Source of the DNA: a virus
Lineage: Duplodnaviria; Heunggongvirae; Uroviricota; Caudoviricetes
Direction: 5' to 3' (one strand)
Virus record (IMG/VR): IMGVR_UViG_3300000553_000015
Length of the DNA stretch: 23,310 bases
Shown: piece by piece, positions 1 through 16,349 of the stretch
Layout of the letters: each line of letters starts with the position of its first letter
How positions within the stretch are numbered: position 1 is the stretch's first letter
Position numbers and translations under genes: made by a program
The notes under the pieces: model-generated
What the model saw: only the letters and a program-made list of their open reading frames with translations
Told to the model about the DNA's origin: nothing
Database searches by the model: none

Positions 1-222
1 AAAAAGGCCGTTAGTACATATCGTAAAGAACATCCTGGAAGCAAACTAAAAACTGCTGTTACAAAAAAACCTAGTGAATTAAAGAAAGGTAGTAAAGACT
101 CTAATAGACGAAAAAGTTTTTGTGCAAGGTCAAACGGACAAAAGAATATGCATCACATTGATTGTTCAAAAACACCCGATAAACCAATCTGTAAAGCACG
201 TAGTCGATGGAACTGTGAATGA
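1..222 (+). CDS. 3' end of a basic phage protein (DUF6321-like), truncated by the window edge
   Basis: Frame 1 is open from base 1 to TGA at 220-222: KKAVSTYRKEHPGSKLKTAVTKKPSELKKGSKDSNRRKSFCARSNGQK...PICKARSRWNCE. The 'PGSKLKTAVT...RRKSFCAR...RWNC' pattern is recalled from large-phage DUF6321-type proteins. The stop overlaps the next ATG (ATGA). Confidence 0.6.
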   Translation, partial: KKAVSTYRKEHPGSKLKTAVTKKPSELKKGSKDSNRRKSFCARSNGQKNMHHIDCSKTPDKPICKARSRWNCE

Positions 223-689
223 AGATTAAAGAAATTTTAGAAGTAACTATGAATAGTAAAACAGGTGCTGGTGCTGTAAGCAATAATGATGAAGTAGATT
301 ACTTTGGAATTCGTGTAAAAATGAAACCATCAACATTTTTAAAGTTAGCAGAAGAAATGCCAGTAGATTCAGAAGTAAAACAACAAATTTTAAAATTAGC
401 ACAGTATATAAAAGATGGCGGGGAAATTGGTCAACCATTTTTTGGTATACATATTCCAGAAAAATGGCATTCTGGAGACTTTACAGAACCTGCTGAAATT
501 ACAAATCATGAAGGACGACATCGCATGGAAGCAATTATATTAGCGGAAGGTGATAACCCTGTTGAAGTGCATTTATTTCCACAATATTATAGAAATAGAC
601 ATATAACACTTGAATGGATTAAACGACTTAATAAAAGTATTATTAGCGAGACTGGACAATTGATATCAGGCCCATTGTTTACAATTTAA
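219..689 (+). CDS. Hypothetical phage protein with ParB/sulfiredoxin-like motif
   Basis: 156-aa ORF coupled to the upstream stop. HEGRHRM resembles the ParB/Srx 'DGHHR' motif. N-terminus MKIKEILE. Confidence 0.55.
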   Translation: MKIKEILEVTMNSKTGAGAVSNNDEVDYFGIRVKMKPSTFLKLAEEMPVDSEVKQQILKLAQYIKDGGEIGQPFFGIHIPEKWHSGDFTEPAEITNHEGRHRMEAIILAEGDNPVEVHLFPQYYRNRHITLEWIKRLNKSIISETGQLISGPLFTI

Positions 690-694
690 GAATT

Positions 695-780
695 GCCCTT
701 AGGACCGTAACATTTGTTACGTGGCATAGGTGTCTACCACCTTTAGAACATTGATTCGCTACCAGTATTCTATAAAGGGT
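695..780 (+). ncRNA. Putative structured RNA: four-way junction with pseudoknot (family not identified)
   Basis: P1 GCCCTT 695-700/AAGGGT 775-780; P2 CGTAAC 706-711/GTTACG 716-721; P3 AGGTG 728-732/CACCT 738-742; P4 TAGAA 744-748/TTCTA 768-772 plus ATTG 750-753/CAGT 763-766. Loop GCTAC 758-762 is complementary to GTGGC 721-725. GC-richer than its flanks and fills the intergenic gap. Confidence 0.55.
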
Positions 781-801
781 AGAATTAATTTGAGAAATAT
801 A

Positions 802-1044
802 ATGAAAATATATGAAATAATATTTGAAGATGAATTGTTAGATGAAGATGGGATTCCATCATTAAAGGATGTATTAAGAGAATTAAAACGTCAAGGATGG
901 ACTAAAAGAGAAGGTGGTTCACATGAAAAATGGTTCCCACCTGAAGGGTTTATATTACCAAATAACAGACCTTTTATACCAATTCCTAGATCTCATTGTA
1001 ATCCACATACTCTTAGGGATATTATAAAAATAGCCAAATTATGA
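802..1044 (+). CDS. HicA-family mRNA interferase-like protein with acidic N-terminal extension
   Basis: ATG at 802 preferred over the 730 start, which lies inside the RNA structure. LKDVLRELKRQGW..REGGSHEKW...IPIPRSH...TLRDIIKIAKL matches the HicA pattern (GSH motif). No hicB adjacent. Confidence 0.7.
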   Translation: MKIYEIIFEDELLDEDGIPSLKDVLRELKRQGWTKREGGSHEKWFPPEGFILPNNRPFIPIPRSHCNPHTLRDIIKIAKL

Positions 1045-1047
1045 TTT

Positions 1048-1218
1048 TTAATATCTATTTTGCCAAATAAAAAACCAATCTTTTAATGATTTATAAATCA
1101 TTTCTGGGACTATTACAAATAGACTAAGTACTGCTACTAATAGTAATATAAACATAATTCCTATTGTAGCAATTATTCCGCAAATCGATGATATAAAACT
1201 TCTGTTTCTAAATGCCAT
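1048..1218 (-). CDS. Small membrane protein (56 aa)
   Basis: ATG at 1218 with AAAGGA upstream. MAFRNRSFISSICGIIATIGIMFILLLVAVLSLFVIVPEM... has a long hydrophobic stretch. The track's 1290 start overlaps the cyclase gene. Confidence 0.6.
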   Translation of the reverse strand: MAFRNRSFISSICGIIATIGIMFILLLVAVLSLFVIVPEMIYKSLKDWFFIWQNRY

Positions 1219-1228
1219 TTTGAATCCT

Positions 1229-3283
1229 TTATTTTGTTGTTGCTCGAAGAATTCCATCCCAGTCTTTGGGAAATGAGATATCTTCACCATATGTTTCTAT
1301 TCGTTTAATCATCATATCATAATAGTAGTCAAGTGCACCATTAAAAGAACCTTTTAATTCGAGGCATTCAACTGTTGCTAGCCACCATTGTTGTGATTGA
1401 TAATAATTAAACATTTTATTGTGTTTTAATCGATGTGCGTGTGAACTATTATTTGGTAATATTGTATAGATATCTAACCCAATAGTTTTTCCTTTAACTG
1501 CTATATCATCCAGTTTAATAACAAAATAATCATTCTCTACAAGTTTAGCAGTTGTGGGGCCAATTATTAATAATACACCATAACCTTTGGTTTGTCCTTC
1601 TAATCTAGCAGCAGTTGATACTGAATCACCAAGTACATCATACCCAAACCTTGCTTTAGACCCAATATTTCCGATTAATGTTGGTCCAGTATTAACACCA
1701 GCTCCCATACCAATTTTGGGTTTACCTTGTCGTACTAATTGCTCATTAAATTTGTCAACGGCTTCGATCATTTCTAAAGCAGTTCTTACCGCATTCTTAG
1801 CGTGGTATTTATCATCTAATGGTGCCCCATGTACATGTAAACTGGCATCACCTATGAATTTTATTAAACACCCATCATTCTTTAATACTGGGTCTGAAAT
1901 AGCAGTCATATAGTCATTCATGATTTTAGTTAACCCTTCTACATCTTCCCCATATGATTCCCCAAGAGTTGTAAACCCTCTTAGGTCTGTCATCACTATA
2001 GACAGCTCTTTCTTTTCGCCACCAAGTTTAATTAACTCTGGATTCTTCTGAAGTCTTTCAACCATTACAGGTGACACATAACTTCCAAATTGTTTCTTGA
2101 TTTGTTGTTTTTGTAAAAATTCATTTACAAATTTAATTCCATATGCATGTAAAGCAACCAAAATAATACCGCTAACTAGTGCAGTGATATCTAAAAGATA
2201 CAGATATTCTGTAAAAGCAAACCTACTTCCAATAACAATACACATTATGATAATGAAAGTGCTTGCTAACCCAACATATACCCATCTTGTTAAAATTAGT
2301 AAAAGTAAACATGAAAATAGTAGAATCCCTTCTTCAGCGGTATCTGCCCAAAACGGTCGTTGGATATTCACGTTATTCATCATTGTACTAATTACCGTTG
2401 CTTGCATATCTTGCGGCCAAACACTACCAATACTTGTAGGAACTGGGTTACCTAGTCCAGCAGCACTTGTACCCACGATTACTATAGCACCATCAAAATC
2501 ATCAGGTAAATGTTCTAAACTAAGTGATTTATGTTGTTGACTCCAATCTATCCATATACGTCCTAAGTTATCTGTGCTTATAGTACCAAACTCAGGAATA
2601 CGCATTTTATCAACACCAAATTCATTCAATTTTACTTGAAATGTTGATACACCTGATGCAACTCTAAGTGCTTCAATTGCAATACTAGGATACAGTTTTT
2701 CATTTACTGATACAACTAGCGGCATACGTCTATTAACACCATCAATTTCTGGTAATGTATTTGTTGTTCCTACACCAGCAGCATTCATTTCTAATGATTC
2801 TATATTTGCAATCAATCCAGGATATTGCACAATTCTATCTAAGTATTCTGAACCAATAACTACACTTCCTGGTGTTTTTGGTAAATTTTTAAATTGCTGA
2901 GACGGAACATTGCTTAACACAACAGGAAATTCTGATAAGTATTTTGCAAGTTGGGAATCTTGTCCACTACGATCCTTATCTGGCATAAGAACATTCCAAA
3001 CAACTAGACCTGCATTTTTAGAATATAAATCATTAATAATTTTTGCATACTCACCACGTGGGAATGGCCATTGACCATATTTGTTTAATGATTCTTCATC
3101 AATATTTACAGTAACAACACTATTTTCGGTTGGGTGTTTATTTGCTATTAATGTGTCAAAATATCTTAATCTAATTGATTCTACAAATGTCGGGTCTGAT
3201 ATTCTTATAACTAAGATTATTGCTAGTGTAATTAACGCTGTCCACACACTTGTTGCTATTTTTCTAAGGATCTGTTTGGTCAT
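1229..3283 (-). CDS. CHASE2-domain class III adenylate/guanylate cyclase
   Basis: N-terminal TM; CHASE2 (VVTVNIDEESL..YGQWPFPR, EIDGVNRRMPL); three TM helices; cyclase motifs SIVMTDLRGFT, KFIGDA, GVNTG..LIGNIGS...YDVLGDSVSTAARLE. K and D specificity residues suggest ATP. Confidence 0.92.
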   Translation of the reverse strand: MTKQILRKIATSVWTALITLAIILVIRISDPTFVESIRLRYFDTLIANKHPTENSVVTVNIDEESLNKYGQWPFPRGEYAKIINDLYSKNAGLVVWNVLMPDKDRSGQDSQLAKYLSEFPVVLSNVPSQQFKNLPKTPGSVVIGSEYLDRIVQYPGLIANIESLEMNAAGVGTTNTLPEIDGVNRRMPLVVSVNEKLYPSIAIEALRVASGVSTFQVKLNEFGVDKMRIPEFGTISTDNLGRIWIDWSQQHKSLSLEHLPDDFDGAIVIVGTSAAGLGNPVPTSIGSVWPQDMQATVISTMMNNVNIQRPFWADTAEEGILLFSCLLLLILTRWVYVGLASTFIIIMCIVIGSRFAFTEYLYLLDITALVSGIILVALHAYGIKFVNEFLQKQQIKKQFGSYVSPVMVERLQKNPELIKLGGEKKELSIVMTDLRGFTTLGESYGEDVEGLTKIMNDYMTAISDPVLKNDGCLIKFIGDASLHVHGAPLDDKYHAKNAVRTALEMIEAVDKFNEQLVRQGKPKIGMGAGVNTGPTLIGNIGSKARFGYDVLGDSVSTAARLEGQTKGYGVLLIIGPTTAKLVENDYFVIKLDDIAVKGKTIGLDIYTILPNNSSHAHRLKHNKMFNYYQSQQWWLATVECLELKGSFNGALDYYYDMMIKRIETYGEDISFPKDWDGILRATTK

Positions 3284-3479
3284 TGATGGTATGTCCTAGT
3301 GTTGTTGCTCCAGCAATTTCTGCTGCTGTAAAATGTTTGCATTTATCACCAATTTTGTAATCACAGATTGGTTTTTTTGGAGATGGTCTAATAAGTTTTA
3401 ACTCATTAATTGGTGCTGCTATATGTTGAGTTGCACAACCTGACAGAATTATTAATGAAAATAATATTATTTTTCTCAT
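3264..3479 (-). CDS. Small lipoprotein
   Basis: MRKIILFSLIILSGC lipobox, two further Cys, overlaps the cyclase start. Confidence 0.65.
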   Translation of the reverse strand: MRKIILFSLIILSGCATQHIAAPINELKLIRPSPKKPICDYKIGDKCKHFTAAEIAGATTLGHTINDQTDP

Positions 3480-3485
3480 GTGTAT

Positions 3486-4505
3486 TTATTTTGTTTGCAT
3501 ATCTATTAGATTATCTTTAAAAATCTTCCAACAATTGTCCCAAGTCCATTTACTACTTGCATTATACACAATATCTCTATCTAAAGTTAAACATGATTCA
3601 ACACTAAATGATAGATCATCAGACATATGTCCAGTAACATTCTGTTCTAAAATATCAATAGGACCTGGAACAGGATATGCAGCAACTGGCGTTCCTACAC
3701 TCAAACTTTCAATGATAACTATACCAAACGTATCAGTTCTACTAGTAAACACAAAGACATCTGATTTAGCAAAATATTTTGCTAAATCACTTCCAGTTTT
3801 TGAGCCAACAAACCATACATTTTTATATTTCTTTTTTAGCTCTTCTAGGTATGGGCCATCACCAACTACTATTTTAGACACGTTTTTATAGTTTGGTAAT
3901 ACTAACTGACAGAAATCATCTAGACCTTTTTCTTTACTTACACGACCAACACTTAATAGTATTATTTCTTTATCTGAAAACTTTTTATTTTCATCACGTT
4001 TAAAAATAGTTCGATCAACACCACGTGTCCATGGTATGATATCACCATTAAACCCATGTGCTTTTAAATCATCGACCATTGTTTTAGTAGTTGTTAGCAC
4101 TTTACCAGAATGCTTATGAAACCATCTTACATAAGAATATGTAATATTTTCTGGAATATTATATAACTTTTTTAGAAATTCTGGAAATTTTGTATGATAT
4201 GCTGATGAAAAATTTATATTATGTTTCTTGCACCAAAAAAGAACGGCTAATCCAAGTGGTCCTTCTGTCGCAATATGAATATAATCTGGGTTAATTGCTT
4301 TGATTTTTTTATCAATCTGCCACGGAATACTTATTTTTACTTCTGGGTATCCAAATGCTGGAAAATTGAAGAACATATCTGGAAAGATATATTTTACAAT
4401 ATATCCATTTGTTAGTGCGTGTTTTTCTATATTTTTATAAGTAGTAACTACACCGTTGATCTGGTTATGTGAATTATCTGTGACTATCAATATTGTTTTT
4501 TTCAT
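3486..4505 (-). CDS. GT4 glycosyltransferase, Agt-like (glycosyl-diacylglycerol synthase family)
   Basis: ILIVTD...QINGVVTT, YPEVK, PDYIHIATEGPLG, AYHTKFPE, VGRVSKEKG, DVFVFTSRTDTFGIVIIESLSVGTPVAAYPVPGP (D-x7-E GT4 motif). Confidence 0.88.
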   Translation of the reverse strand: MKKTILIVTDNSHNQINGVVTTYKNIEKHALTNGYIVKYIFPDMFFNFPAFGYPEVKISIPWQIDKKIKAINPDYIHIATEGPLGLAVLFWCKKHNINFSSAYHTKFPEFLKKLYNIPENITYSYVRWFHKHSGKVLTTTKTMVDDLKAHGFNGDIIPWTRGVDRTIFKRDENKKFSDKEIILLSVGRVSKEKGLDDFCQLVLPNYKNVSKIVVGDGPYLEELKKKYKNVWFVGSKTGSDLAKYFAKSDVFVFTSRTDTFGIVIIESLSVGTPVAAYPVPGPIDILEQNVTGHMSDDLSFSVESCLTLDRDIVYNASSKWTWDNCWKIFKDNLIDMQTK

Positions 4506-4506
4506 A

Positions 4507-4674
4507 CTATTTCTTTAAGCAAACATATAGTTCGTTATCCCTGTGATCTTTTGATTTTTGTAATTGTTCCATTGCTACCTTGCATGAATCTTGAGAACTA
4601 AATTCACCGATTGGTTGCCAAAATAGACTAGTACCCAATGCTGCAACTGCTTGTAATGCTACTAAAATATACAT
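4507..4674 (-). CDS. Small hypothetical protein (55 aa), possibly exported
   Basis: Not in the ORF track. MYILVALQAVAALGTSLFWQPIGEFSSQDSCKVAMEQLQKSKDHRDNELYVCLKK; AAGGA RBS; TAG at 4507-4509 lies 1 nt before the GT4 ATG. Confidence 0.65.
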   Translation of the reverse strand: MYILVALQAVAALGTSLFWQPIGEFSSQDSCKVAMEQLQKSKDHRDNELYVCLKK

Positions 4675-4726
4675 AAGTTATTCCTTTATATTATTATAAT
4701 GGTGTAATATACGGCCATATATCATG

Positions 4727-5479
4727 TTATTCTTGAATTGAAGTCCAGTATATTATTTCAAATGACCCATCATGATTTTCAACTAATGCAGATAACGATT
4801 CAACCCAATCTCCATCATTCATGATTATAATACCATCTATATCTTTTATAACAGGGGTGTGTGTATGCCCTGCTATGACACCATCAAACCCTCGTTTTTT
4901 ACAATAGTTTGCCAATGTTACTTCAAACTGAAACAAAAAGTCAACCGCTGATTTAACTTTGTGTTTAAGGTATTTACTTAAACTCCAATAACCAAATCCT
5001 AATTTATGTCTAATCCAATTAAATTTGTTGTTAACCGCTAATATTAAATCATAACCTTTATCACCTAAAAATCCAAGCCATGGTGCAATTTTACTAATCC
5101 CATCAAATAGATCGCCGTGAGTAACAAGATATCTTTTACCATCTACCCCAATATGTTCTGCTTGATTATGAATTGAAATTTTACCAAATGAAATGCCAAG
5201 ACCAATCATTGGACGTAGAAATTCATCGTGATTTCCAGCTACATAGATTACTTTTGTACCATGCTTTGCAATACCTAGTATTCTACGAACCACATTGGAA
5301 TGACTTTGCTTCCACTTGAGTTTATTTTGTTGAATCTTCCATCCATCTATGATATCTCCTATTAGGTATAGGGTCTCACAAGAATTATGTTTTAGAAAAT
5401 TATTTAGTTGATCTGCTTTGCAATCACGAGTTCCAAGATGAACGTCGCTAATAAAAATAGTGCGATATGTTTTATTCAT
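4727..5479 (-). CDS. Calcineurin-like metallophosphoesterase, PlcP/LpxH-like (probable phospholipase C)
   Basis: YRTIFISDVHLGT..CKA, LYLIGDIIDGW, YVAGNHDE, HGDLFD, GHTH, NDGDWVES. The pattern matches PlcP-type enzymes, and the gene neighbours an Agt-like GT4. Confidence 0.82.
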   Translation of the reverse strand: MNKTYRTIFISDVHLGTRDCKADQLNNFLKHNSCETLYLIGDIIDGWKIQQNKLKWKQSHSNVVRRILGIAKHGTKVIYVAGNHDEFLRPMIGLGISFGKISIHNQAEHIGVDGKRYLVTHGDLFDGISKIAPWLGFLGDKGYDLILAVNNKFNWIRHKLGFGYWSLSKYLKHKVKSAVDFLFQFEVTLANYCKKRGFDGVIAGHTHTPVIKDIDGIIIMNDGDWVESLSALVENHDGSFEIIYWTSIQE

Positions 5480-5482
5480 AAA

Positions 5483-5491
5483 GTATTTATC
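5483..5491 (-). promoter_or_regulatory. Late-promoter-like motif GATAAATAC
   Basis: One mismatch to T4 late consensus TATAAATA, 3 nt upstream of the phosphoesterase ATG; no SD present. Confidence 0.4.
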
Positions 5492-5522
5492 GCACTATTT
5501 TTAAAAATATATTAAATTTATG

Positions 5523-5681
5523 TTACAGTTTTACGATTGTCCAACGGGCTGAAAATGGTTTATTTTTTTCTTTATGTTTTAATATTTTTTTATATTCTTC
5601 TATTCTTAATGAATATAATTTTTCATTATCACCAGTTAGACAAGCATTTAAAACTTCTTTTACAAGTTTCTTTTGTTTCAT
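5523..5681 (-). CDS. Small basic hypothetical protein (52 aa)
   Basis: Not in the track. MKQKKLVKEVLNACLTGDNEKLYSLRIEEYKKILKHKEKNKPFSARWTIVKL with GGAG RBS. Confidence 0.65.
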   Translation of the reverse strand: MKQKKLVKEVLNACLTGDNEKLYSLRIEEYKKILKHKEKNKPFSARWTIVKL

Positions 5682-5704
5682 GCTATTCTCCAGTAGACTA
5701 GTAT

Positions 5705-6577
5705 TTAGTTTAATTTGCTTTCTATAAAAGAAACAATAGCACCTGCAACATCGGTATTACAATATTTTTCAAAACCACTAAATCCTGGGTTTGAGTTGGC
5801 TTCACATACTCTAAATCCTCGTGAATCAAACAGTAAATCTATACCTGCTATATCTAATTTTAGTATATTAGCAGCATTTACAGCTATTTCAGCTATTTCT
5901 GGGGTTATTTCAAATGATTCACCAGTTCCACCATTTGTAATGTTAGCACGGAAATCTCCATCAGGTGCAGTTCTTTTCATAGCACCTAGAACTTTCCCAC
6001 CTATGACCAATACTCTTAAGTCTTCACCAGGTCTTTCACCAATATACTCTTGTGCTATTAATACCTTTGTATTATATACAATATTGACAAAATCTACAAA
6101 TCTTCGATAATCTTCTGTGGTATTACATAAATGAACACCTTCACCAAAACTTCCAACTACTACTTTTATAATACATGGAAATCCAATATGTTCATTTACA
6201 AGATCATTTGTTATTGGGTGTTTTACTATTATTGTTGTAGGAACCGCAATACCGGCTTTACTTAATATTTCACCTGAATGAAATTTATCTTGAACTATGT
6301 TAATACTATCACTTGAATTAAAACATGGTATATTAGATAGTTCAAAATATCTTACAACTGATAGATCTTTTCTGCCGATACCAGCACCTACCCTTACTAG
6401 AATTGCTTTTGGTAATTCAAGTTTTTCACCATCATAGTAAATACCATCGTTAATTATGATATCAATTTTTTCAAAATAACAAACTTTAGCGACAATTTCT
6501 TTCTCTTCAAACTTTTCGATTAGCTTTGTTGTTTCATATTCGTGTTTACTTTGTTTAGCTAAAATTATAACTGACAT
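5705..6577 (-). CDS. RimK-family ATP-grasp ligase
   Basis: QDKF...L..AGIAVPTT, GFPCIIKVVVGSFGEGV, IAQEYI, DLRVLVIGGKVLGAMKR, DFRANITNGG, GIDLL, VCEANSNPGF. Confidence 0.88.
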   Translation of the reverse strand: MSVIILAKQSKHEYETTKLIEKFEEKEIVAKVCYFEKIDIIINDGIYYDGEKLELPKAILVRVGAGIGRKDLSVVRYFELSNIPCFNSSDSINIVQDKFHSGEILSKAGIAVPTTIIVKHPITNDLVNEHIGFPCIIKVVVGSFGEGVHLCNTTEDYRRFVDFVNIVYNTKVLIAQEYIGERPGEDLRVLVIGGKVLGAMKRTAPDGDFRANITNGGTGESFEITPEIAEIAVNAANILKLDIAGIDLLFDSRGFRVCEANSNPGFSGFEKYCNTDVAGAIVSFIESKLN

Positions 6578-6602
6578 AAATTCCTTTATATAATGATAAT
6601 TG

Positions 6603-6677
6603 TTAACGGGTATTGATATAGCAGGTTACTTCAAACCCTAATCTAATATCATTGTATGTAGGTGTACTCCAAATCAT
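6603..6677 (-). CDS. pqqA: PqqA, pyrroloquinoline quinone precursor peptide (24 aa)
   Basis: Not in the track. MIWSTPTYNDIRLGFEVTCYINTR fits the PqqA pattern W..P...D.R.G.EVT.Y...R with the E-x3-Y pair. AGGAG RBS 7 nt upstream. Confidence 0.88.
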   Translation of the reverse strand: MIWSTPTYNDIRLGFEVTCYINTR

Positions 6678-6705
6678 AATAATTCTCCTAAATTATCTAA
6701 GTACG

Positions 6706-6714
6706 GTATTTATC
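6706..6714 (-). promoter_or_regulatory. Late-promoter-like motif GATAAATAC upstream of pqqA
   Basis: Same 9-mer as at 5483-5491, located in the intergenic gap. Confidence 0.4.
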
Positions 6715-6735
6715 AAAATTAATATTACAGAAAAA

Positions 6736-7854
6736 TTACTGTCCTTGTTGTACAGAAATTTTAGGACATCCACCGGTTGTAGCACAGTTGAAGTTTATTG
6801 AATATGATTGTTGTAAAGATCCAGCTTGATTTAGACTTAAATCTACTGGTAAACCTGACAACGTGACATTTGCCATATGATTACCAGAGCCTTGTTGTGT
6901 GATATCAACATTTTTATTACCACCACTTAATGTGGTTTCTATATACTGATTGCCATTACCCGATTGATTTGTAATTAATGATGAATTATTACCTATTATA
7001 TTAGCAGAAACTTGTTTACTTCCACCTTCATTTGATTGTGTCAATGATGCGGTATTTGAGTTTCCTATTATATTTAATGTTGCGTAGTTGGTAGAGGTAC
7101 TATTGGATGATGATTGTGTAATGTTTACGGAATTACTGTTACCATTGCCATAATAATTTGCGTAGTTATTTTTAGTACCTGTTTGATTTACGGTTATTGT
7201 ATTTGCAGACCCAATTTGATCAATATAAACCTTACTATCCGATGTTGCTCTATTGATATAGGATTGGATATTGGCATTATCAAATACATTTATAGTAAAT
7301 GGCGATGATGATGCACCACAACATACTGGTGGAACAAATACATTAACAGATGTTCCTAAGTTTGTAAATGGAACAACCGCTATGCCACCAATATCCCAGT
7401 CAAGTTGTATAACAGCCCCACCACCATTTTCATAATACCAAACATCCATGGTATATATTTGCCCTGAAGTAAGTAATATACTACCAGAACTATTATAATT
7501 TGCCGGACCTTGTTCTATCCAGTTATTGATTACAGTGGTACCATTTATAGTCATATAAAATCCATCATCACTACGATCATAAAATGTTACATTTTTCAAA
7601 CCAGTGTTTGTAGCACCGGGCCACAGAATATATCCAGTAAAGTGTATTAAAACCCCATCGGATAATCCACTATTCATAACAACTCCAGAACCCCAATCAT
7701 AGTTTAACGTATTAGCAACTCCAGATGCTAAGACTGTTCTGTTAGTTGTCATTGATGGTGTTGCACCACCTGCTGCATATACTGTATAATTTAATCCAGC
7801 AATATCAACTGCGTAAACATTAAAACTCAATAAAAATAAAATGATATATCTCAT
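6736..7854 (-). CDS. Secreted PA14-domain / curlin-repeat fusion protein
   Basis: Signal peptide; PA14 motifs (HFTGYI, SDDGFYMTING..VINNW, YYENGGGAVIQLDW); C-terminal N/Q/G-rich repeats (VYIDQIGSANTITVNQTG, GNSNSVNITQS, GNSNTASLTQS, NVDITQQGSGNH). Confidence 0.82.
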   Translation of the reverse strand: MRYIILFLLSFNVYAVDIAGLNYTVYAAGGATPSMTTNRTVLASGVANTLNYDWGSGVVMNSGLSDGVLIHFTGYILWPGATNTGLKNVTFYDRSDDGFYMTINGTTVINNWIEQGPANYNSSGSILLTSGQIYTMDVWYYENGGGAVIQLDWDIGGIAVVPFTNLGTSVNVFVPPVCCGASSSPFTINVFDNANIQSYINRATSDSKVYIDQIGSANTITVNQTGTKNNYANYYGNGNSNSVNITQSSSNSTSTNYATLNIIGNSNTASLTQSNEGGSKQVSANIIGNNSSLITNQSGNGNQYIETTLSGGNKNVDITQQGSGNHMANVTLSGLPVDLSLNQAGSLQQSYSINFNCATTGGCPKISVQQGQ

Positions 7855-8936
7855 TGTTTTGGTACTCCTGGATTTTGAATAATTGTAACAATATTTCCAC
7901 CAGGAGTACCAGTACCTATAACTGCTGCCCCCGGACTATAGTTTTGTGTAATAAATACTGATGTGTTTGATGCAAAGCCAAATGTTTTTACTTCTGCGTA
8001 ATCTTGTGAACCTAATACCCTAAATGCAATACCTTTTCCTTTACCTTGTGTATCAGTTGCTGCTGAATTTTCCCATGAAATACATACATTAGTAGTTGGG
8101 TCACACCCATTCTCATTTGCTTCACGTATTAATGAAAGTAATCTTGCTTCGGAATCTTGTGTATTTTTGGAAACTTGATTAACTAACCTTCTAGCCATTT
8201 CCTCTTCCATTGCTTGAACTTCTTTATCTTTTGGTGATTTACTGGACTCCTTGACTACCTTTTGCACTTCCAGTGGTTTGACTAGAATAAGGTTATTTGA
8301 AATCTTTGATTCTATTATGTTAACAGTTGTTGGTAGACTGGGTGACATTGTTGCACTTTGGACATATGTAGCTTCATATGCTTTATCTAATGATACGGTA
8401 CCAGCAAGTGTCGTAACATCTATTTTACCTACTGCGCATATATTTTCTTGAAGTTCGTACTGTTTGATATCTTTTTTATCTTTACAACTTGGTACTAATA
8501 CTATTAAAGACTGACCAGCTTCATCTACAGTCATTGTGAAATCTGTACCTCTAACTGCAATAGTAGCTGTAGGTGTTTTTATTCCAACTTGCTGTGGATT
8601 ATTTTTAGCAATTTGCCCAGATGCATACCTTACTGTACCCATACCTACTTTTAAAGCAAGTTTTCCAGCATCTGATTGTTTTGGGTCAAACACAAAATCA
8701 TCTATTAATAATCTACTATTTTCATTTACTTTGACGTTTGTATCATCTTTGAATTTTATATCAGCAACACAACCACCGGTAATATAAGTGTCCATACTTT
8801 CTATTGAAGCACCTTTATTACCTGGTAGTTTTTGTTTATTACGTTCTATTTGGCAGGATATTCCTTTAGTTTCTCCCACTGAGCCAATATCAGCCCATAC
8901 ATTAGAAGAAACCAACATGAATATAATCCACCACAT
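7851..8936 (-). CDS. Exported FecR-domain protein
   Basis: Signal peptide; FecR core (DTYITG, IKFKDDTNVKVNENSRLLID, G.VRYASG, IKTPTATIAVRGTDF). Confidence 0.85.
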   Translation of the reverse strand: MWWIIFMLVSSNVWADIGSVGETKGISCQIERNKQKLPGNKGASIESMDTYITGGCVADIKFKDDTNVKVNENSRLLIDDFVFDPKQSDAGKLALKVGMGTVRYASGQIAKNNPQQVGIKTPTATIAVRGTDFTMTVDEAGQSLIVLVPSCKDKKDIKQYELQENICAVGKIDVTTLAGTVSLDKAYEATYVQSATMSPSLPTTVNIIESKISNNLILVKPLEVQKVVKESSKSPKDKEVQAMEEEMARRLVNQVSKNTQDSEARLLSLIREANENGCDPTTNVCISWENSAATDTQGKGKGIAFRVLGSQDYAEVKTFGFASNTSVFITQNYSPGAAVIGTGTPGGNIVTIIQNPGVPKQ

Positions 8937-8937
8937 A

Positions 8938-9723
8938 TTATCTTGCTATTGCTGATTGTGGGCTCACTATGGTTGCAGAACTTGTTCTAACAGTAACGGT
9001 ATTGAAGTCACCTTGAGTTAATATATTAACGTTAGTATTGTTTGCACCTTGTTGTTGGGTGTATATAACATTACTACTTCCAGTAATATTCTCAACTAAA
9101 GAATGAACACCAACATCATTTTGTTGTGTGTTTATAATGTTGCTATTACCTGAAATATTAATAGTACTATTATCGCTAGAACCTGCTATTCCAGAAGTAC
9201 TAGTTATATTTTGTGTAACTTGGTTGAAGTTACCAGATGCTGATAAGAAACTGGTAATATAGTTACCTATTAAATTTTGTAATGATAAGTTGCTATCACC
9301 TGTTATTAATTCGGTAATAGTATTATAGTTATTAGATGGATTTCCTTGACTACCAACTGTTAATGATGTTTGGTTACTACTTCCAGTAATGGTACTAGTA
9401 TACATATTGTTACCACCTAGGATATTATATTGCGCCCAATCGTTATTACCATGTTGTGTAATGTTTAGAATATTGCTACTACCTGTAACGGTTCCATAGT
9501 TCAATGCACTTGCTGCTACTGGTGTAACCGATGTAACACCAGCTGAATCAACCGAAATAGTTCCAGATGTTCCACCAACGGTGTTAGTTCCACCTACTTG
9601 TTCAACATTAATAGTATTTGATGTTCCTATTTGTTCTATATAAACATTATTTGGTCCAGTTGATATTCCAACTCCAAATGCTGTTTGTGATAGAAATGTT
9701 GTTAATAAAAGATATTTTTTCAT
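8938..9723 (-). CDS. Curlin-repeat (CsgA/CsgB-like) secreted protein
   Basis: Signal peptide; repeats such as NNVYIEQIGTSNTINVEQVG, SNILNITQHGNND, GNSNIINTQQ, GSSNVIYTQQQG, NILTQGDFNTV. Lies directly after csgG. Confidence 0.8.
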   Translation of the reverse strand: MKKYLLLTTFLSQTAFGVGISTGPNNVYIEQIGTSNTINVEQVGGTNTVGGTSGTISVDSAGVTSVTPVAASALNYGTVTGSSNILNITQHGNNDWAQYNILGGNNMYTSTITGSSNQTSLTVGSQGNPSNNYNTITELITGDSNLSLQNLIGNYITSFLSASGNFNQVTQNITSTSGIAGSSDNSTINISGNSNIINTQQNDVGVHSLVENITGSSNVIYTQQQGANNTNVNILTQGDFNTVTVRTSSATIVSPQSAIAR

Positions 9724-9728
9724 TGCTC

Positions 9729-10535
9729 CTACCCCTTAAATGCCCAGATTCCTTTTCTAGCACCTTCTTTAATTGTTTCGACAACTGCTGCTTGTATTGC
9801 CTTATTAGTAGCTCTATTAATGCTCTCGTTAATAGAACCGCCTACCTCTGCTTCCACTGCCATTGTTCCGGCATCTATAAATTTAAGTAATCCAACACGA
9901 TCTAAATAACTTAAAACAGTTTTAGTGATTGTAACACTAGTTAATACTTCTCCTGTATTAACCGAAACAGTTCTTAAACTGATAGTTACTGTATCACTTT
10001 GGTATTGTGTATCTGCTCCAATACCAAAGAATCTTACACCTGCTCCACCTGTTATTGTATTAGAATCATATCCTACGATTGACCCTTCTACTATAATACC
10101 AGCAAATGTCATAGCAGGCAATGATATTGCATCTTTACCTTGAAATTGTTCACGCATTTGACGAATCATTTGACGTTCTTTAATCAAATTCTCTAATCCA
10201 ACACGTTCTACAACTTTAAACCACACACCATTACCAGCATCTTGTAATGCTTTAATCAAGTATCCTTCACCACCTTGAGTAACAGCAGAACTTAAACTGG
10301 CAATTCCAGTTATTGATTTACGTTGACCAGTTTTATCCATAAAACCATATACTGCAACAGGAACAGGTCCACCAACTGGCGGTTTTAATTGATTTTCTTC
10401 TTTTTTAAGGTATGTGCTAATACTTTCATTTACCGGATCATCAAACTGTTCACCAGTTAATAACTTATGTATAGAACTACCTGTTGCACATCCTTGTAAT
10501 AATGTTATTGCACATAATATAATAATCTTTTTCAT
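9729..10535 (-). CDS. csgG: Curli secretion channel lipoprotein CsgG
   Basis: Lipobox LLQGC; VAVYGFMDKTGQRK, LSSAVTQG, WFKVVERVGLENLIKERQMIR, IIVEGSIVGYD, LRTVSVNTGEVL. Confidence 0.92.
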   Translation of the reverse strand: MKKIIILCAITLLQGCATGSSIHKLLTGEQFDDPVNESISTYLKKEENQLKPPVGGPVPVAVYGFMDKTGQRKSITGIASLSSAVTQGGEGYLIKALQDAGNGVWFKVVERVGLENLIKERQMIRQMREQFQGKDAISLPAMTFAGIIVEGSIVGYDSNTITGGAGVRFFGIGADTQYQSDTVTISLRTVSVNTGEVLTSVTITKTVLSYLDRVGLLKFIDAGTMAVEAEVGGSINESINRATNKAIQAAVVETIKEGARKGIWAFKG

Positions 10536-10537
10536 AG

Positions 10538-11023
10538 CTAAAAATAAAATGTCCCCGCTGGTACTGAAATTTGTGTGGTTTGACTAGGATTTGAGTTGTT
10601 GGTAATATTAATTAAAATCATACCATTATTTGAACCACTTCCTAATCCCCAGGTTACCGTATTCCCACCAAGATCTGGAATTGTTCCACAGACTGTACCT
10701 GGTGTAGTACATGTTGGATTTCCAGTCCCACCAAAAATACTATTTGTTAGTTGTTGAGCCAGTTGTGAATAAATTCTAGATTGTAAATTTGCTATAAATT
10801 GTGCCTGTGGTGTATTTGCAGCTGCAGCCTCAGCTTGTTGTTTTATGGCAGCAGCAGCTGCTTGATTCTGTGATGTCGCTTGGTTTTCTAACTGCTGAAT
10901 AGTTAATATATGTGAACTATAGCCAGCACCACTGAATGATGGACTATTAAATCCAAATTGTATTTCGGCAGCAAAAGATGGCATAGCTGCTAAAAATAAT
11001 ATAAAACCTACTATTTTACTCAT
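10538..11023 (-). CDS. csgF: Curli assembly factor CsgF-like
   Basis: Signal peptide then FGFNSPSFSG (CsgF F.NP.FGG-like), QFIANLQSRIYSQL, TTQISVP; adjacent to csgG. Confidence 0.78.
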   Translation of the reverse strand: MSKIVGFILFLAAMPSFAAEIQFGFNSPSFSGAGYSSHILTIQQLENQATSQNQAAAAAIKQQAEAAAANTPQAQFIANLQSRIYSQLAQQLTNSIFGGTGNPTCTTPGTVCGTIPDLGGNTVTWGLGSGSNNGMILINITNNSNPSQTTQISVPAGTFYF

Positions 11024-11079
11024 GTTTGTTGCTCCTAATATTATATTTAAGCGATAACAAATATGAGTAAAACTAGTAG

Positions 11080-11754
11080 TTAACTAGATGGGAATAGACA
11101 GTTATTAATATATTCTACTGCTTCTTCTTCTGACAATCCTAACATCATCAATACTTTAGGATTGTGTGGGTTAAGACGTTGATTTTCAACATAATATTTA
11201 TGTTTATTTGAAATATCATCGCTTGTGTTGTTTGTATCAGATAACGATGCTAGATATACGTCTAATGTATCTGCTATCATATCAGATATTTGCGTTAGCT
11301 CTTCATCTGATTGTACGTTACCAGCAGCAATAATATCATTTGAAAATATACGTTGTGCCCATTCTGGTAATTCACGTTTCTTATTCCAAGATAACTTTGC
11401 AGATTCATTTGCAAACCATTCTGATAACGGATGATTATCTGATACTGGACTAAAATCATGAAAACAACCTGTGATTTTATTCTTACCAGCAAATACATCA
11501 AACCCAAATATTGGAGCAGGATTATGAAAATGTGGATAAATGCAACAATGCATCATCCACAACCCACGAGTATCTATTGCATCAATAATATTGACATGTG
11601 CTTTTCTATATAAATCAGATTCCCAGGTTAGATTACTCCAACCTGGCTTGTTAAACTGAACAGCTTCTGGTATATGAATTTCTTCACCTGAATGATCAAA
11701 TTTATATTTAAATAGCTGACTTATATCAATAAGCGACATTTGAATGTTATTCAT
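11080..11754 (-). CDS. Ferredoxin-dependent bilin reductase (PcyA/PcyX type)
   Basis: YRKAHV, LWMMHCCIYP, PIFGFDVFAG, FHDFSP, RELPEWAQRIFS, YVENQRLNPH. Start uncertain (11754 or 11739). Confidence 0.85.
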   Translation of the reverse strand: MNNIQMSLIDISQLFKYKFDHSGEEIHIPEAVQFNKPGWSNLTWESDLYRKAHVNIIDAIDTRGLWMMHCCIYPHFHNPAPIFGFDVFAGKNKITGCFHDFSPVSDNHPLSEWFANESAKLSWNKKRELPEWAQRIFSNDIIAAGNVQSDEELTQISDMIADTLDVYLASLSDTNNTSDDISNKHKYYVENQRLNPHNPKVLMMLGLSEEEAVEYINNCLFPSS

Positions 11755-12061
11755 CAATAGGTAGCCATGCCCACGATTTTATTATATTCTTAATACTAGG
11801 TCTTCGCCTAAATAACCATATTTTACGATGTGGTCTTGTTTTTACAATAAAATCATATGGATCCATCTGCGTAACTACTTTAGAAAATGGTGATTCTATT
11901 CTAATATACCATCCATCATTTTGTGTGCCAATTACGTCTGATGAATACACGTGCTTGCTATACGGTTGATATTTGACTTTTATAGATTTACCAAATGATA
12001 ATAGAACATTTGAAACATATGGTTCACCTTGAATATTTGTTTTTATCTTAATTAGTTTCAT
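11747..12061 (-). CDS. Hypothetical protein between heme oxygenase and bilin reductase
   Basis: 104-aa ORF overlapping both neighbours, implying translational coupling; no family recognised. Confidence 0.6.
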   Translation of the reverse strand: MKLIKIKTNIQGEPYVSNVLLSFGKSIKVKYQPYSKHVYSSDVIGTQNDGWYIRIESPFSKVVTQMDPYDFIVKTRPHRKIWLFRRRPSIKNIIKSWAWLPIDE

Positions 12062-12590
12062 CCAATGCCTTCATGATTTTTATAGCCCATTCAAATGCTA
12101 CTCTAGCTTCATCTCCTAAATCATCAGTTAATTCTGCTCTAATAGCATTTCGTAGACCTTCAACATCTTCAAATTGATAGAACTTACCAGAACCTGGAAC
12201 AGTCTTAGCGATATATTGCCCACCATTCAATGTCCCTAGGTGATGAACATATAAATGAGCTTTTATTAAATGCTTACGTTCTAAATCGTTGATTAAATCT
12301 TGCAGATATCTAATATATTCCAATGTTTCTTGTGTCCACGTGTAATGAATCTCTTTATCAGCTAATTCAAGAAAATCTTGATAGATATATTTTGTTCTAT
12401 CAATACCAGATAATTTAGAAAAAAATCCCTGAACTTGCGCTCCAAATTCAATAGTGGAATATATTGGGATCATTTGCCACAAATAGTTTATATATAATTC
12501 TCTTGGTAATTTTCCTGAAATGATTAATTTCATAAAATCAGTTTGTTCAGCTTGTGTATGTAAATCTTTAGTGATTTCGCGTAATGACAT
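12048..12590 (-). CDS. Heme oxygenase
   Basis: MSLREITKDLHTQAE (proximal His helix), AHLYVHHLGTLNGGQ (distal helix), EARVAFEWAIKIM; AAGGA RBS. Confidence 0.88.
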   Translation of the reverse strand: MSLREITKDLHTQAEQTDFMKLIISGKLPRELYINYLWQMIPIYSTIEFGAQVQGFFSKLSGIDRTKYIYQDFLELADKEIHYTWTQETLEYIRYLQDLINDLERKHLIKAHLYVHHLGTLNGGQYIAKTVPGSGKFYQFEDVEGLRNAIRAELTDDLGDEARVAFEWAIKIMKALDETN

Positions 12591-12718: not shown

Positions 12719-13541
12719 ATGAGTATTTATACAGAAATACAACCAACATATCTTTATATAAAAAAGCATTCAATTACTGGTCTAAAATATTTTGGAAAAA
12801 CTAGTAAAAAAGACCCATACAAGTATCTAGGATCTGGAAAATATTGGAAAAAACATATCAAAAAACATGGAAAACAATTTGTAGAAACATTATGGGTTTC
12901 AGAATTATATTATGACACTTCAATTATTGACCATGCTTTGCATTTTTCAAATGAAAATAATATAGTATTGTCAGATGATTGGGCCAACTTGGTAATGGAA
13001 AATGGTATAGATGGAGGGGTATCTGGGGTATCTGGGACATCACCATCGGTAGAAACTAGATCTAAGTTATCAATCGCTAATAAAGGTCATACAGTGACTC
13101 AGGAAACACGCACTAAAATATCATCAGCGCATAAAGGCAACCCGAAATCAAAAGAAACTAGATAAAAAATATCAGTTGCAAAAAAAGGCACAATATGTTC
13201 TTATGAAACTAAACTAAAATTATCTATTGCTAATAAAGGAAAGATAAAAATCTGATGAAACTAAAGCAAAATTGTCTATAGCAAATACAGGAAAAAAAGC
13301 ATCAGCGGATACTTTAATAAAAATGTCTATCGCCGGTAAAAATATTTCTGACGAAACACGTAGGAAAATGTCTGATTCTAAAAAGGGTAGTATATTATCA
13401 GTTGAAGTTAAATCAAAAATTTCAGCTGCACACAAAGGACGAATTTTTAAAACAGCAGAATGTCCACATTGTAATAAGTCTGGAAGAATTAATAATATGA
13501 CCAGATATCATTTCAATAATTGTAAATTAAAATATCAATAA
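12719..13541 (+). pseudogene. Degenerate free-standing GIY-YIG-type homing endonuclease with NUMOD3-like repeats
   Basis: YLY-x10-YFG motif followed by about eight 17-aa S.ETR.K.S.A.KG repeats and a C-terminal CPHC..CK tail. Broken by in-frame TAA at 13163-13165 and a one-base frameshift near 13238-13250. The track ORFs 12719..13165 and 13272..13541 are its pieces. Confidence 0.82.
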
Positions 13542-13587: not shown

Positions 13588-13890
13588 TTATTCAGATTGT
13601 TCAATTTTGATCTGTAATGGAAAACCATTTTCTCTTGCAAGTTTTGTCGCTTCTACTGCTTTAATTTCTGCAATTTCAAAATCATAAAATCCAGCAATAC
13701 CAGATCCAGATTCGTGGACTTGTAATGTAACATTTGTTGCGGAATCCATTGAATGTTTAAATATTTCAATAAGCATAGCAATTACAAAATCAATTGGTGT
13801 ATGATCATCATTGATTATGATAACTTTCCATCGTTTTGGTTCTGACACTTTAATACTTACTTTTTCTTCGGTGATAACATCTGTTGACAT
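13588..13890 (-). CDS. clpS: ATP-dependent Clp protease adaptor ClpS
   Basis: EPKRWKVIIINDDHTPIDFVIAMLIEIF, VHESGSGIAG, EIAEIK, ARENGFPL. Confidence 0.92.
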   Translation of the reverse strand: MSTDVITEEKVSIKVSEPKRWKVIIINDDHTPIDFVIAMLIEIFKHSMDSATNVTLQVHESGSGIAGFYDFEIAEIKAVEATKLARENGFPLQIKIEQSE

Positions 13891-13908
13891 ATTGTTTTCC
13901 TTTAATGT

Positions 13909-13926
13909 GGGGGAGTTTCCTCCCCC
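13909..13926 (-). other. GC-rich hairpin between hsp20 and clpS
   Basis: GGGGGAG-GAAA-CTCCCCC on the minus strand; no U-tract, so more likely a stability/processing element than a terminator. Confidence 0.45.
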
Positions 13927-13937
13927 TGGTGATAAAA

Positions 13938-14363: not shown

Positions 14364-14371
14364 TTTATTTT

Positions 14372-14424
14372 CTCCTTATATTAAGCAAGATGTTCATAAT
14401 ACCCAAATGGCATACTATGAACAT
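14372..14424 (-). promoter_or_regulatory. ROSE-like RNA thermometer in hsp20 leader
   Basis: CUUGCUU (14383-14389) pairs with SD AAGGAG (14372-14377) with a bulged G; 12-bp hairpin upstream at 14390-14424. Confidence 0.65.
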
Positions 14425-16341: not shown

Positions 16342-16349
16342 AATATTTT

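What the first reader, a model, noticed from the sequence alone, without database searches (positions are those of the whole stretch)
695..780. Compact pseudoknotted four-way-junction RNA directly upstream of an orphan HicA-like gene
Seen: four clean stems fill the intergenic gap, and the P4 loop (ATTCGCTAC) can pair with junction GTGGC to form a pseudoknot. This density of pairing is unexpected in AT-rich spacer DNA. I cannot assign it to a known riboswitch or ribozyme. Inference: a phage ncRNA, such as a self-cleaving or processing element, a translational control element, or an RNA antitoxin for the toxin gene 21 nt downstream.
Basis: partly seen in the sequence, partly recalled or inferred. 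Interest (0 to 1): 0.7.

Follow-up and report, generated by a model that had tools for sequence, protein, structure and literature searches.

The report
Phage pseudoknot RNA mirroring 23S rRNA
The flagged spacer holds a real folded RNA of about 95 bases from a large family found almost only in big uncultured phages; it has nothing to do with the neighbouring HicA toxin gene, and its two invariant exposed segments are the exact complement of a universally conserved stretch of bacterial 23S ribosomal RNA, so the phage may use it to pair with the host's large ribosomal subunit RNA (untested).

Summary
The spacer after the 156-aa gene (window about 690-783, + strand) holds a real structured RNA. 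A covariance model built from other phages hits it over its full length (48.9 bits, E 4e-10). The family has more than 190 distinct members in viral contigs. It occurs once, rarely twice, per large phage genome and is almost absent from bacterial genomes. It has no Rfam match and is not a tRNA.

The family closes the 5' domain with a short P1 (694-697/723-726). The real pseudoknot joins the P3 loop (733-737) to the 3' tail (779-783), with a compensatory double change in the sister contig.

HicA is not a partner. Homology with the sister contig stops at 790, and HicA opens a 10.3-kb variable island.

The invariant blocks CCUUAGGACCG and UUCGCUAC are exact antisense to E. coli 23S rRNA 1920-1930 and 1930-1937 (chance about 1e-6). 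My best guess, at about 35-40%, is a trans-acting RNA that pairs with host 23S rRNA. Function is untested. This scan reached the same reading earlier on other genomes.

The parts
219..689 (+). Upstream 156-aa gene of unknown function; its stop codon is TAA at 687-689. The RNA starts within a few bases of it.
   Evidence: ORF list. No Pfam or PHROG hit. 47 homologues and more than 200 viral loci. In the family the conserved block lies 7-15 nt after the stop codon of a same-strand ORF in most loci.
690..693 (+). 5' flank GAAU (family consensus GAAC, A-rich), unpaired.
   Evidence: Alignments A3 and A6, and the upstream base-frequency profile.
694..697 (+). P1 5' strand (UGCC), pairs with 723-726 (GGCA). 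The register is shifted by one base relative to the family consensus.
   Evidence: Read from the sequence. It is 5 bp in L004 (UUGCC/GGCAA). The family P1 has compensatory changes at all 5 pairs.
697..707 (+). Conserved block CCUUAGGACCG. C698-C705 (CUUAGGAC) is unpaired in the junction between P1 and P2. The block is an exact antisense match to E. coli 23S rRNA 1920-1930.
   Evidence: Invariant in A3, with the caveat that most of A3 came from a search pattern that fixed TAGGACCG. The core CCUUAGG is kept in members found without this block in the search pattern. 23S match.
706..721 (+). P2 hairpin: CGUAAC / GUUACG with loop AUUU.
   Evidence: L004 has CGCAA/UUGCG, a compensatory U-A to C-G change. 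Family covariation at 3 of 5 pairs. P2 is absent in the short forms.
723..726 (+). P1 3' strand (GGCA).
   Evidence: As for 694-697.
728..742 (+). P3 hairpin: AGGUG / CACCU. Its loop UCUAC (733-737) is the 5' strand of the pseudoknot.
   Evidence: 99.7% of cells paired, and 4 of 5 pairs show double changes.
744..772 (+). P4 hairpin: 10-position stem with one C/A mismatch. Its 9-nt loop AUUCGCUAC lies at 754-762. UUCGCUAC is an exact antisense match to 23S rRNA 1930-1937.
   Evidence: L004 has a perfect 10-bp stem with a compensatory A-U to G-C change. Family covariation in the lower and upper stem. 23S match.
773..778 (+). A-rich linker UAAAGG (family AAAG). AAG can pair with CUU of the conserved block; this contact never varies in the family.
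   Evidence: pairs 14-186, 17-185 and 18-184 are pairable in 55/73, 63/71 and 68/72 rows, with no variation.
779..783 (+). Pseudoknot 3' strand GUAGA, pairs with the P3 loop UCUAC (733-737). This is the 3' end of the conserved element.
   Evidence: L004 has ACUAC/GUAGU, a double compensatory change. Family loop/tail variants match in at least 8 combinations (helices 4 and 5).
791..11087 (.). Not part of the RNA. This 10.3-kb variable island starts 7 nt after the RNA. It carries HicA-like (802-1044), a CHASE2 cyclase, and CsgG/CsgF-like and other genes.
   Evidence: blastn of the window against the sister contig; Pfam.

Best explanation
What it is. Window about 690-783 (+) encodes one copy of a roughly 95-nt pseudoknotted RNA. 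It belongs to a large family specific to big uncultured phages.

How it is probably made (inferred). It is transcribed as the tail of the upstream gene's mRNA, because no conserved promoter lies in front of it. Short family members end in a U-tract terminator.

Fold (shown by comparison). P1 encloses an exposed CUUAGGAC segment plus hairpin P2. Hairpin P3 pairs through its loop with the 3' tail, forming an H-type pseudoknot. Hairpin P4, inside the pseudoknot, presents a 9-nt loop.

Likely working parts (inferred). These are the two invariant exposed segments. Together they are the exact complement of 18 contiguous bases of bacterial 23S rRNA (1920-1937: helix 69 3' strand, linker, start of helix 70).

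Most likely mechanism (inferred, untested). The RNA acts in trans and base-pairs with host 23S rRNA while that region is unfolded, for example in nascent or late-assembling 50S particles. It would thereby alter host ribosome biogenesis or subunit joining.

It is not functionally tied to HicA.
For: Family membership and structure:
- Model R2, built only from other phages, hits window 686-783 over its full length at 48.9 bits, E 3.8e-10.
- Family structure including the pseudoknot: 93.4% of cells paired against 70.3% in shuffles, 21 of 26 pairs with double changes, and slid controls at 29-54%.
- Pseudoknot loop/tail variants match each other: GCUGC/GUGAGC, GGUGC/GUGACC, GCCAC/GUGGC, GCUAC/GUAGC, CUCCCUG/CAGGGAG, window UCUAC/GUAGA and L004 ACUAC/GUAGU.

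Strand:
- A conserved G-U pair in P3 occurs in 74 of 77 rows.
- Short forms carry U-tracts on the + strand.
- 91 of 122 loci have both neighbouring genes on the same strand as the RNA.

Distribution:
- 81 of 100 viral pattern loci pass the model, against 1 of 100 bacterial or archaeal pattern loci.
- The class-A pattern occurs once in each of 5 large phage contigs. The model finds one clear copy per contig, plus a weak second one in one complete genome.

23S complementarity:
- CCUUAGGACCG is the reverse complement of E. coli 23S 1920-1930, and UUCGCUAC of 1930-1937.
- For the first block this is by far the best duplex site in 16S, 23S and 5S: -20.3 against -15.2 kcal/mol for the next site.
- Monte Carlo chance is 414/200000 for the first block and 127/200000 for an adjacent second block, jointly about 1e-6.
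- No contiguous phage-encoded target was found in 5 phage records.
- Short forms keep both motifs and P2 but lack P3 and the pseudoknot. This fits the loops as working parts and the rest as scaffold.
- From established knowledge: the 23S stretch is the I-CeuI site, conserved across bacterial rrl genes.
Against: - No expression or binding data exist.
- In mature ribosomes 1920-1937 is largely base-paired, so pairing would need unfolded rRNA.
- The CC and CG ends of the first block sit in P1 and P2. The CUU of that block may pair with the tail AAG. A 9-nt hairpin loop cannot easily form 8 bp.
- The two motifs are in permuted order relative to a plain antisense RNA.
- Members found without fixing the P4 loop have other loop classes: AGUCGUGCC, UAACGCCAUU/UUACGCCAGA and GGCCGGGAAUCC. 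The best rRNA sites of the first and last are elsewhere.
- Some members carry changes in the first block that would mismatch 23S (CCUCAGGACCG, CCUUAGGAACG).
- In one subtype CCUUAGG is paired inside the RNA with CCUAAGG, so its conservation may be structural.
- The invariance of both motifs in my first set was imposed by the search pattern.
Confidence: 0.38

Rival explanations
1. Protein- or ligand-binding structured RNA. The invariant loops are recognition surfaces for a phage or host protein (for example RNA polymerase, an RNase or Hfq), or form a tertiary core. The 23S complementarity is then mimicry of a partner's natural site, or has no function.
For: - The scaffold core (CCUUAGG, the P3 loop-tail pseudoknot, the AAAG linker) is constant while the P4 loop comes in discrete classes, all of the form N3-CG-N4.
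- CCUUAGG is sometimes buried in a helix.
- The CUU/AAG contact is conserved.
- Loop classes B and D have no good site near 23S 1920-1980.
Against: - No protein family is consistently adjacent. The commonest neighbours are replication and nucleotide-metabolism genes: a cytidine/dCMP-deaminase-domain (dCMP_cyt_deam_1) protein, a DsbA-like protein and family B DNA polymerase.
- An exact 11 + 8 nt contiguous antisense match to the most conserved part of 23S has a chance probability of about 1e-6.
Confidence: 0.25
2. Cis-acting 3'-end element of the upstream transcript. It would be a compact pseudoknot that blocks 3' exonucleases, marks a processing site, or insulates neighbouring transcription units.
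For: - It starts within a few bases of a same-strand stop codon in most loci.
- Late-promoter-like ATAAATA within about 17 nt (about 22 of 121) or TTGACA (11 of 121, against 0 upstream) follows it.
- Short forms end in a terminator whose stem is P4.
- No conserved promoter lies upstream.
Against: - A stabiliser needs no invariant 8-11 nt loops conserved across phages of 31-60% GC.
- It occurs once per 300-kb genome rather than after many genes.
Confidence: 0.15
3. New self-cleaving ribozyme or riboswitch.
For: It has a pseudoknotted compact fold with invariant junction nucleotides, an intergenic position in polycistronic phage operons, and no known family match.
Against: - No similarity to any ribozyme or riboswitch model in Rfam, even at E up to 10.
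- Short forms lack P3 and the pseudoknot yet keep the loops.
- The terminator loop itself is the conserved part, which is unlike an expression platform.
- Downstream genes are diverse.
Confidence: 0.08
4. One reading: an RNA antitoxin or cis-regulator of the HicA-like gene 18 nt downstream.
For: Adjacency in this window only. HicA_toxin is a genuine Pfam hit (31 bits, cut-off 27), and no HicB-like gene is next to it.
Against: - The sister contig has the RNA without HicA.
- Homology breaks 7 nt after the RNA.
- Family neighbours fall into about 120 clusters, with no toxin family among the frequent ones I annotated.
Confidence: 0.02
5. A DNA-level site: a recombination or insertion hotspot that marks the edge of a plastic region.
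For: The homology break with the sister contig falls 7 nt after the element, with 10.3 kb replaced by 1.3 kb.
Against: - Compensatory changes, G-U pairs and a pseudoknot indicate selection on a single-stranded fold of the + strand.
- No recombinase is adjacent.
- Only one such comparison was made.
Confidence: 0.05

Closest known systems
Loop-presenting antisense RNAs and trans-acting or 3'-UTR-derived small RNAs (CopA/CopT of plasmid R1, RNA I/RNA II of ColE1, CpxQ/SroC type); from my own knowledge
   Same: A small structured RNA that exposes short conserved single-stranded segments in loops. Some members end in a Rho-independent terminator. It appears to be made from the 3' end of an mRNA.
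   Different: The candidate target is ribosomal RNA, not an mRNA or replication primer. There are two seeds in permuted order on one contiguous target. An H-type pseudoknot serves as scaffold. No target has been shown.
Group II intron exon-binding sites (EBS2/EBS1 pairing with IBS2/IBS1); from my own knowledge
   Same: The topology matches. An upstream internal or junction loop and a downstream hairpin loop pair with the 5' and 3' halves of one contiguous target, in the same (permuted) order.
   Different: The RNA is about 95 nt with no catalytic domains and no reverse transcriptase. There is no sign of splicing or mobility.
T4 gene 32 and gene 43 translational operators (an H-type pseudoknot and a hairpin bound by gp32 and gp43); from my own knowledge and as cited in PMC10690425
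   Same: Compact folded intergenic RNA, including a pseudoknot, in the replication module of T4-like phages. Family B DNA polymerase lies nearby in 32 of 195 loci.
   Different: It is not tied to one downstream gene, since neighbours are diverse. It sits directly after a stop codon rather than over a ribosome-binding site. The loops are invariant across very distant phages.
Calicivirus TURBS (termination upstream ribosome-binding site); from my own knowledge
   Same: A viral RNA motif complementary to ribosomal RNA, placed next to a stop codon.
   Different: TURBS pairs with small-subunit 18S rRNA and lies upstream of the stop inside the ORF. Here the complement is to large-subunit rRNA, the element lies downstream of the stop, and the spacing to the stop is not fixed.
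Anonymous candidate structured RNAs from IMG/VR (DNAVirus_N set; PMC10690425)
   Same: The data source (IMG/VR intergenic regions) and the discovery logic are the same. This family may be among the 8,495 unnamed candidates.
   Different: I could not check. No supplementary files are held, and the main text mentions no 23S-complementary or jumbo-phage motif.

Membership tests
   Window 686-783 (+): 48.9 bits, E 3.8e-10, model positions 1-96. Again 48.9 bits in the search of the window's own record.
This phage pseudoknot RNA family | Pseudoknot between the P3 loop and the 3' tail | tested here: met
   UCUAC 733-737 pairs with GUAGA 779-783. The sister contig has ACUAC/GUAGU.
This phage pseudoknot RNA family | Conserved CCUUAGGACCG junction block and class-A P4 loop AUUCGCUAC | tested here: met
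   Positions 697-707 and 754-762.
Any Rfam 15 family (riboswitches, ribozymes, sRNAs, tmRNA, Y RNA and others) | A covariance-model match at the gathering score | tested here: not met
   0 hits on the window and on 15 family loci. The best permissive hits in 600-900 have E above 3 and are far below gathering scores.
tRNA / tmRNA | Cloverleaf with canonical arm and loop sizes, as detected by ARAGORN | tested here: not met
   0 genes in the window, L002 and L003. The arms have a 4-nt loop, a 5-nt loop and a 9-nt loop on a 10-bp stem.
Type I/III toxin-antitoxin RNA antitoxin for HicA | Conserved linkage of the RNA with the toxin gene | tested here: not met
   L004 lacks HicA. Homology breaks at 790. 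No toxin family appeared among the frequent neighbour families I annotated.
Type I/III toxin-antitoxin RNA antitoxin for HicA | Antisense complementarity to the toxin mRNA (type I), or tandem repeats bound by the toxin (type III) | not tested
   I saw no repeats in the 86-nt element when reading it. I did not run a complementarity search against the HicA mRNA, because linkage had already failed.
Antisense RNA targeting 23S rRNA (proposed mechanism, not an established family) | Contiguous complementarity of exposed conserved bases to rRNA, beyond chance | tested here: met
   11 nt (1920-1930) plus 8 nt (1930-1937), both exact. Monte Carlo 2.1e-3 x 6.4e-4.
Antisense RNA targeting 23S rRNA (proposed mechanism) | Physical pairing with 23S rRNA in infected cells | not testable with these tools
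   No RNA run was listed for this sequence, and no cultured phage carrying the family was found.

The most novel reading that the evidence does not exclude
Large uncultured phages encode a dedicated small RNA that base-pairs with the universally conserved helix 69-70 stretch of host 23S rRNA (1920-1937), using two scaffold-presented loops. In this way it would seize, block or re-programme large-subunit assembly or subunit joining. This would be the first natural trans-acting RNA known to target bacterial large-subunit rRNA. The other P4-loop classes of the superfamily could then be variants aimed at other sites.
Probability: 0.3. Interest if true: 0.92.

Novelty: new variant of a known kind. 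Interest (0 to 1): 0.78.

Why it matters
If the pairing with 23S rRNA is real, it would be a new way for viruses to act on the host translation machinery: with an RNA, on the large subunit, at the bridge-forming helix 69 region. It would also be a natural design for a broad-spectrum anti-ribosomal RNA.

Even if it is not real, this is one of the most widespread unannotated structured RNAs in large environmental phages. It is present once per genome and has a well-supported pseudoknot fold, so it deserves a family model and an experiment.

For this window in particular, the result removes a tempting but wrong toxin-antitoxin reading. It also shows that HicA belongs to a swapped cargo island.

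Tried and rejected
- Rfam at gathering thresholds (window; 15 family loci) and a permissive scan of 600-900: nothing credible.
- ARAGORN: no tRNA or tmRNA.
- First model R1, built from the window plus L004, was too narrow. It found only L083 weakly.
- blastn of the window region and of a typical member against 50,697 cultured phage records: no real match.
- The only cultured phage with a homologue of the 156-aa gene, Ralstonia phage RsoM2USA, lacks the RNA by the model.
- Literature searches by motif strings and by topic found no description. The IMG/VR candidate-RNA catalogue could not be checked because no supplements are held.
- Sequencing runs: no RNA holder listed. I did not lay reads.
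- A bacterial-genome pattern scan gave 120+ hits, but they are chance matches. Only 1 of 100 passes the model.
- The idea that all P4-loop classes map next to the first 23S site is rejected. Class A maps adjacent and class C's best site is 1969-1976 by a small margin, but the best sites of classes B and D are elsewhere.
- P4 loop UUCGCU pairing with tail AGUGAG, suggested in earlier first-reader notes: rejected. The tail covaries with the P3 loop while the P4 loop stays fixed, and in this window the tail GGGUAGA cannot pair with the P4 loop.
- A T-loop / D-loop (tRNA elbow) reading of the two loops: the P4 loop lacks the T-loop A58 position and has 9 nt. I did not pursue it.
- A phage-encoded contiguous target was searched for in 5 phage records: none.
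It was redone correctly.

Full report
**Setting**

The window is bases 4973-28282 of a 37.9-kb IMG/VR viral record, about 31% GC, with CheckV completeness 11%. The genes around the finding are phage-like.
- A DUF6321 protein lies upstream.
- Next comes a 156-aa protein of unknown function at 219-689. It has more than 200 relatives in viral contigs of up to 518 kb.
- Further along are haem oxygenase, a bilin reductase, Hsp70, Hsp20 and homing-endonuclease-like genes.

The same DNA, including the junction between the RNA and HicA, is held by many freshwater metagenome runs. No run is on record as RNA.

**The observation**

However, 8 of 200 shuffles fold as well (z = -1.65), and the minus strand folds slightly better (z = -3.2). 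Thermodynamics alone therefore decide nothing. Rfam and ARAGORN find nothing.

**The sister contig**

IMGVR_UViG_3300023311_001083 (L004/L005) is 93% identical to window 1-790 and carries the element with informative differences.

| Part | Window | L004 | Meaning |
|---|---|---|---|
| P2 | GUAAC/GUUAC | GCAA/UUGC | compensatory |
| P4 | one mismatch, one wobble | perfect 10-bp stem | A-U to G-C swap |
| P3 loop / 3' tail | UCUAC / GUAGA | ACUAC / GUAGU | double change that keeps a loop-tail pseudoknot |

Downstream of the element L004 has no HicA. Homology ends at window 790 and resumes at 11088. The 10.3 kb in the window (HicA, a small membrane protein, a CHASE2 cyclase, a glycosyltransferase, a metallophosphatase, RimK, a PA14/curlin-repeat protein, a FecR-like protein, CsgG and CsgF) stand where L004 has 1.3 kb with two other ORFs. 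HicA is therefore cargo of a variable island, not a partner of the RNA.

**The family**

A weak hit of my first model in L083 shared only UAGGACCG and GGAUUCGCUACC.
Nearly all show the same architecture.
- Two further scans that did not fix the P4 loop, or either loop, also hit the limit. In total I collected 195 distinct loci.
- Model R2, built from nine members of other phages, matched 81 of 100 pattern loci and the window at 48.9 bits.
- The same pattern in 596 Gb of bacterial and archaeal genomes gave the number of hits expected by chance. Only 1 of 100 passed the model, on a 44.6-kb contig binned as Rhodobacteraceae.
- Five large phage contigs each hold one class-A copy. One complete 353-kb genome has a second, degenerate copy.
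- No member was found in cultured phages.

**Structure**

On the model alignment, P1, P2, P3, lower and upper P4 and the pseudoknot together have 93.4% of cells paired, against 70.3% in shuffles and 29-54% in slid controls. 21 of 26 pairs show double changes.

The pseudoknot is the best-supported part, because P3-loop variants and tail variants match one another in at least eight combinations.

Only CUU/AAG, the inner three pairs of the outer stem, is pairable throughout, and it never varies. In the window lineage this contact is extended to six pairs, and by nearest-neighbour energies that fold (-22.4) is about as good as P1 plus the pseudoknot (-17.9 plus about -3.4). Both may form in part, since they overlap by only two bases.

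The exact parts in the window were read from the sequence and are listed under 'parts'.

The + strand is the RNA strand. The evidence is a conserved G-U pair in P3 (74 of 77 rows), U-tracts after P4 in the short forms, and co-orientation with the neighbouring genes.

**Context in the family**

- The conserved block begins 7-15 nt after the stop codon of a same-strand ORF in most loci, and in 15 its UAG is that stop.
- The nearest genes fall into about 120 clusters.
- Within 4 kb the commonest are a cytidine/dCMP-deaminase-domain (dCMP_cyt_deam_1) protein (103 of 195 loci), a small DsbA-like protein (80) and a family B DNA polymerase (32). This is the replication and nucleotide module of T4-like phages.
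- No conserved promoter precedes the RNA. Late-promoter-like ATAAATA or TTGACA often follows it.
- A short form lacks P3 and the pseudoknot, and its P4 is followed by a U-tract.

I infer that the RNA is made as the 3' end of the upstream transcript.

**The 23S match**

I then checked this on E. coli rrlH.
- CCUUAGGACCG is the reverse complement of 1920-1930.
- UUCGCUAC is the reverse complement of 1930-1937. Together they cover 18 contiguous bases: the helix 69 3' strand, the linker and the start of helix 70.
- For the first block this is the best duplex site in all three rRNAs by 5 kcal/mol. For the second it is the best by a small margin.
- Random 11-mers match either strand of the rRNAs 414 times in 200,000. 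Random 9-mers give an 8-nt antisense match next to that site 127 times in 200,000.
- No contiguous target exists in five phage records.
- The order of the two blocks is permuted relative to a plain antisense RNA, as with EBS2/EBS1 of group II introns.

**Cautions**

- The invariance of both blocks in my first set was imposed by the pattern.
- Members found otherwise keep CCUUAGG but vary after it. Their P4 loops fall into classes: AUUCGCUAC and near variants, AGUCGUGCC, UAACGCCAUU/UUACGCCAGA and GGCCGGGAAUCC. All have the form N3-CG-N4.
- Only class A, and marginally class C, map near the first site.
- In one subtype CCUUAGG is paired with CCUAAGG inside the RNA.
- In mature ribosomes the target is mostly helical.
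- There are no expression data.

The mechanism is therefore an inference, which I put at about 35-40%. Protein binding or a structural role, a cis 3'-end function, a new ribozyme or riboswitch, and a DNA-level hotspot remain possible. The HicA antitoxin idea is contradicted.

**Earlier notes of this scan**

After reaching this reading I looked them up. At least eight follow-up reports on other genomes describe the same family and the same 23S complementarity, and several first-reader notes flag further copies. They agree with my results, but they are not independent evidence.

**Verdict**

- The element is a real, conserved, pseudoknotted phage RNA of an undescribed family.
- The proposed link to HicA is wrong.
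- The complementarity to 23S rRNA makes the family a strong candidate for experiment.

Noticed in passing
window 791-11087: A 10.3-kb island is absent from the sister contig, which has 1.3 kb with two other ORFs in its place. The island carries: HicA-like (802-1044), an 80-aa membrane-like ORF, a CHASE2 adenylate/guanylate cyclase (1229-3283), a GT4 glycosyltransferase, a metallophosphatase, a RimK ATP-grasp protein, a PA14/curlin-repeat protein, a FecR-like protein, a 261-aa ORF, CsgG (9729-10535) and CsgF-like (10538-11023). This is a curli-type secretion set inside a phage contig. The RNA-HicA junction is held by many freshwater runs.
   Followed up: partly
window 11080-12590: A ferredoxin-dependent bilin reductase, a 104-aa ORF and a haem oxygenase sit on the minus strand and are conserved (79% DNA identity) in the sister contig. 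They look like phage auxiliary pigment genes.
   Followed up: no
window 13588-16401: A chaperone and protease cluster: a 100-aa protein matching 'ATP-dependent protease' PHROGs, Hsp20, and a full-length Hsp70 (854 bits).
   Followed up: no
window 12719-13165 and 16829-17680: Two homing-endonuclease-like genes (NUMOD3 and HNH PHROG hits) lie on the + strand among minus-strand genes.
   Followed up: no
window 219-689: A 156-aa protein family with no Pfam or PHROG match but more than 200 viral relatives. Its invariant residues include H97, G99, R100, R102 and M103 (motif HEGRxRM). From memory this recalls ParB/sulfiredoxin-type motifs; I did not test that.
   Followed up: partly
L449 105-170 (G002:C1:76954-77019): A complete 353-kb phage genome has a second, degenerate copy of the RNA. 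It keeps P3, the pseudoknot tail and a UCGCUAC loop, but has CCUUAAAC in place of CCUUAGGACCG.
   Followed up: partly
loci L208-L327 (listing): The wider superfamily keeps the scaffold but has discrete P4-loop classes, all of the form N3-CG-N4. Some members contain the sense sequence as well: CCUAAGG pairs with CCUUAGG, and UGGCGU pairs with the ACGCCA loop.
   Followed up: partly
L364 6976-7081: This is the only model-positive member among 100 bacterial-genome pattern hits. It lies on a 44.6-kb contig binned as Rhodobacteraceae. It may be a mis-binned phage contig or a hint at the host.
   Followed up: no
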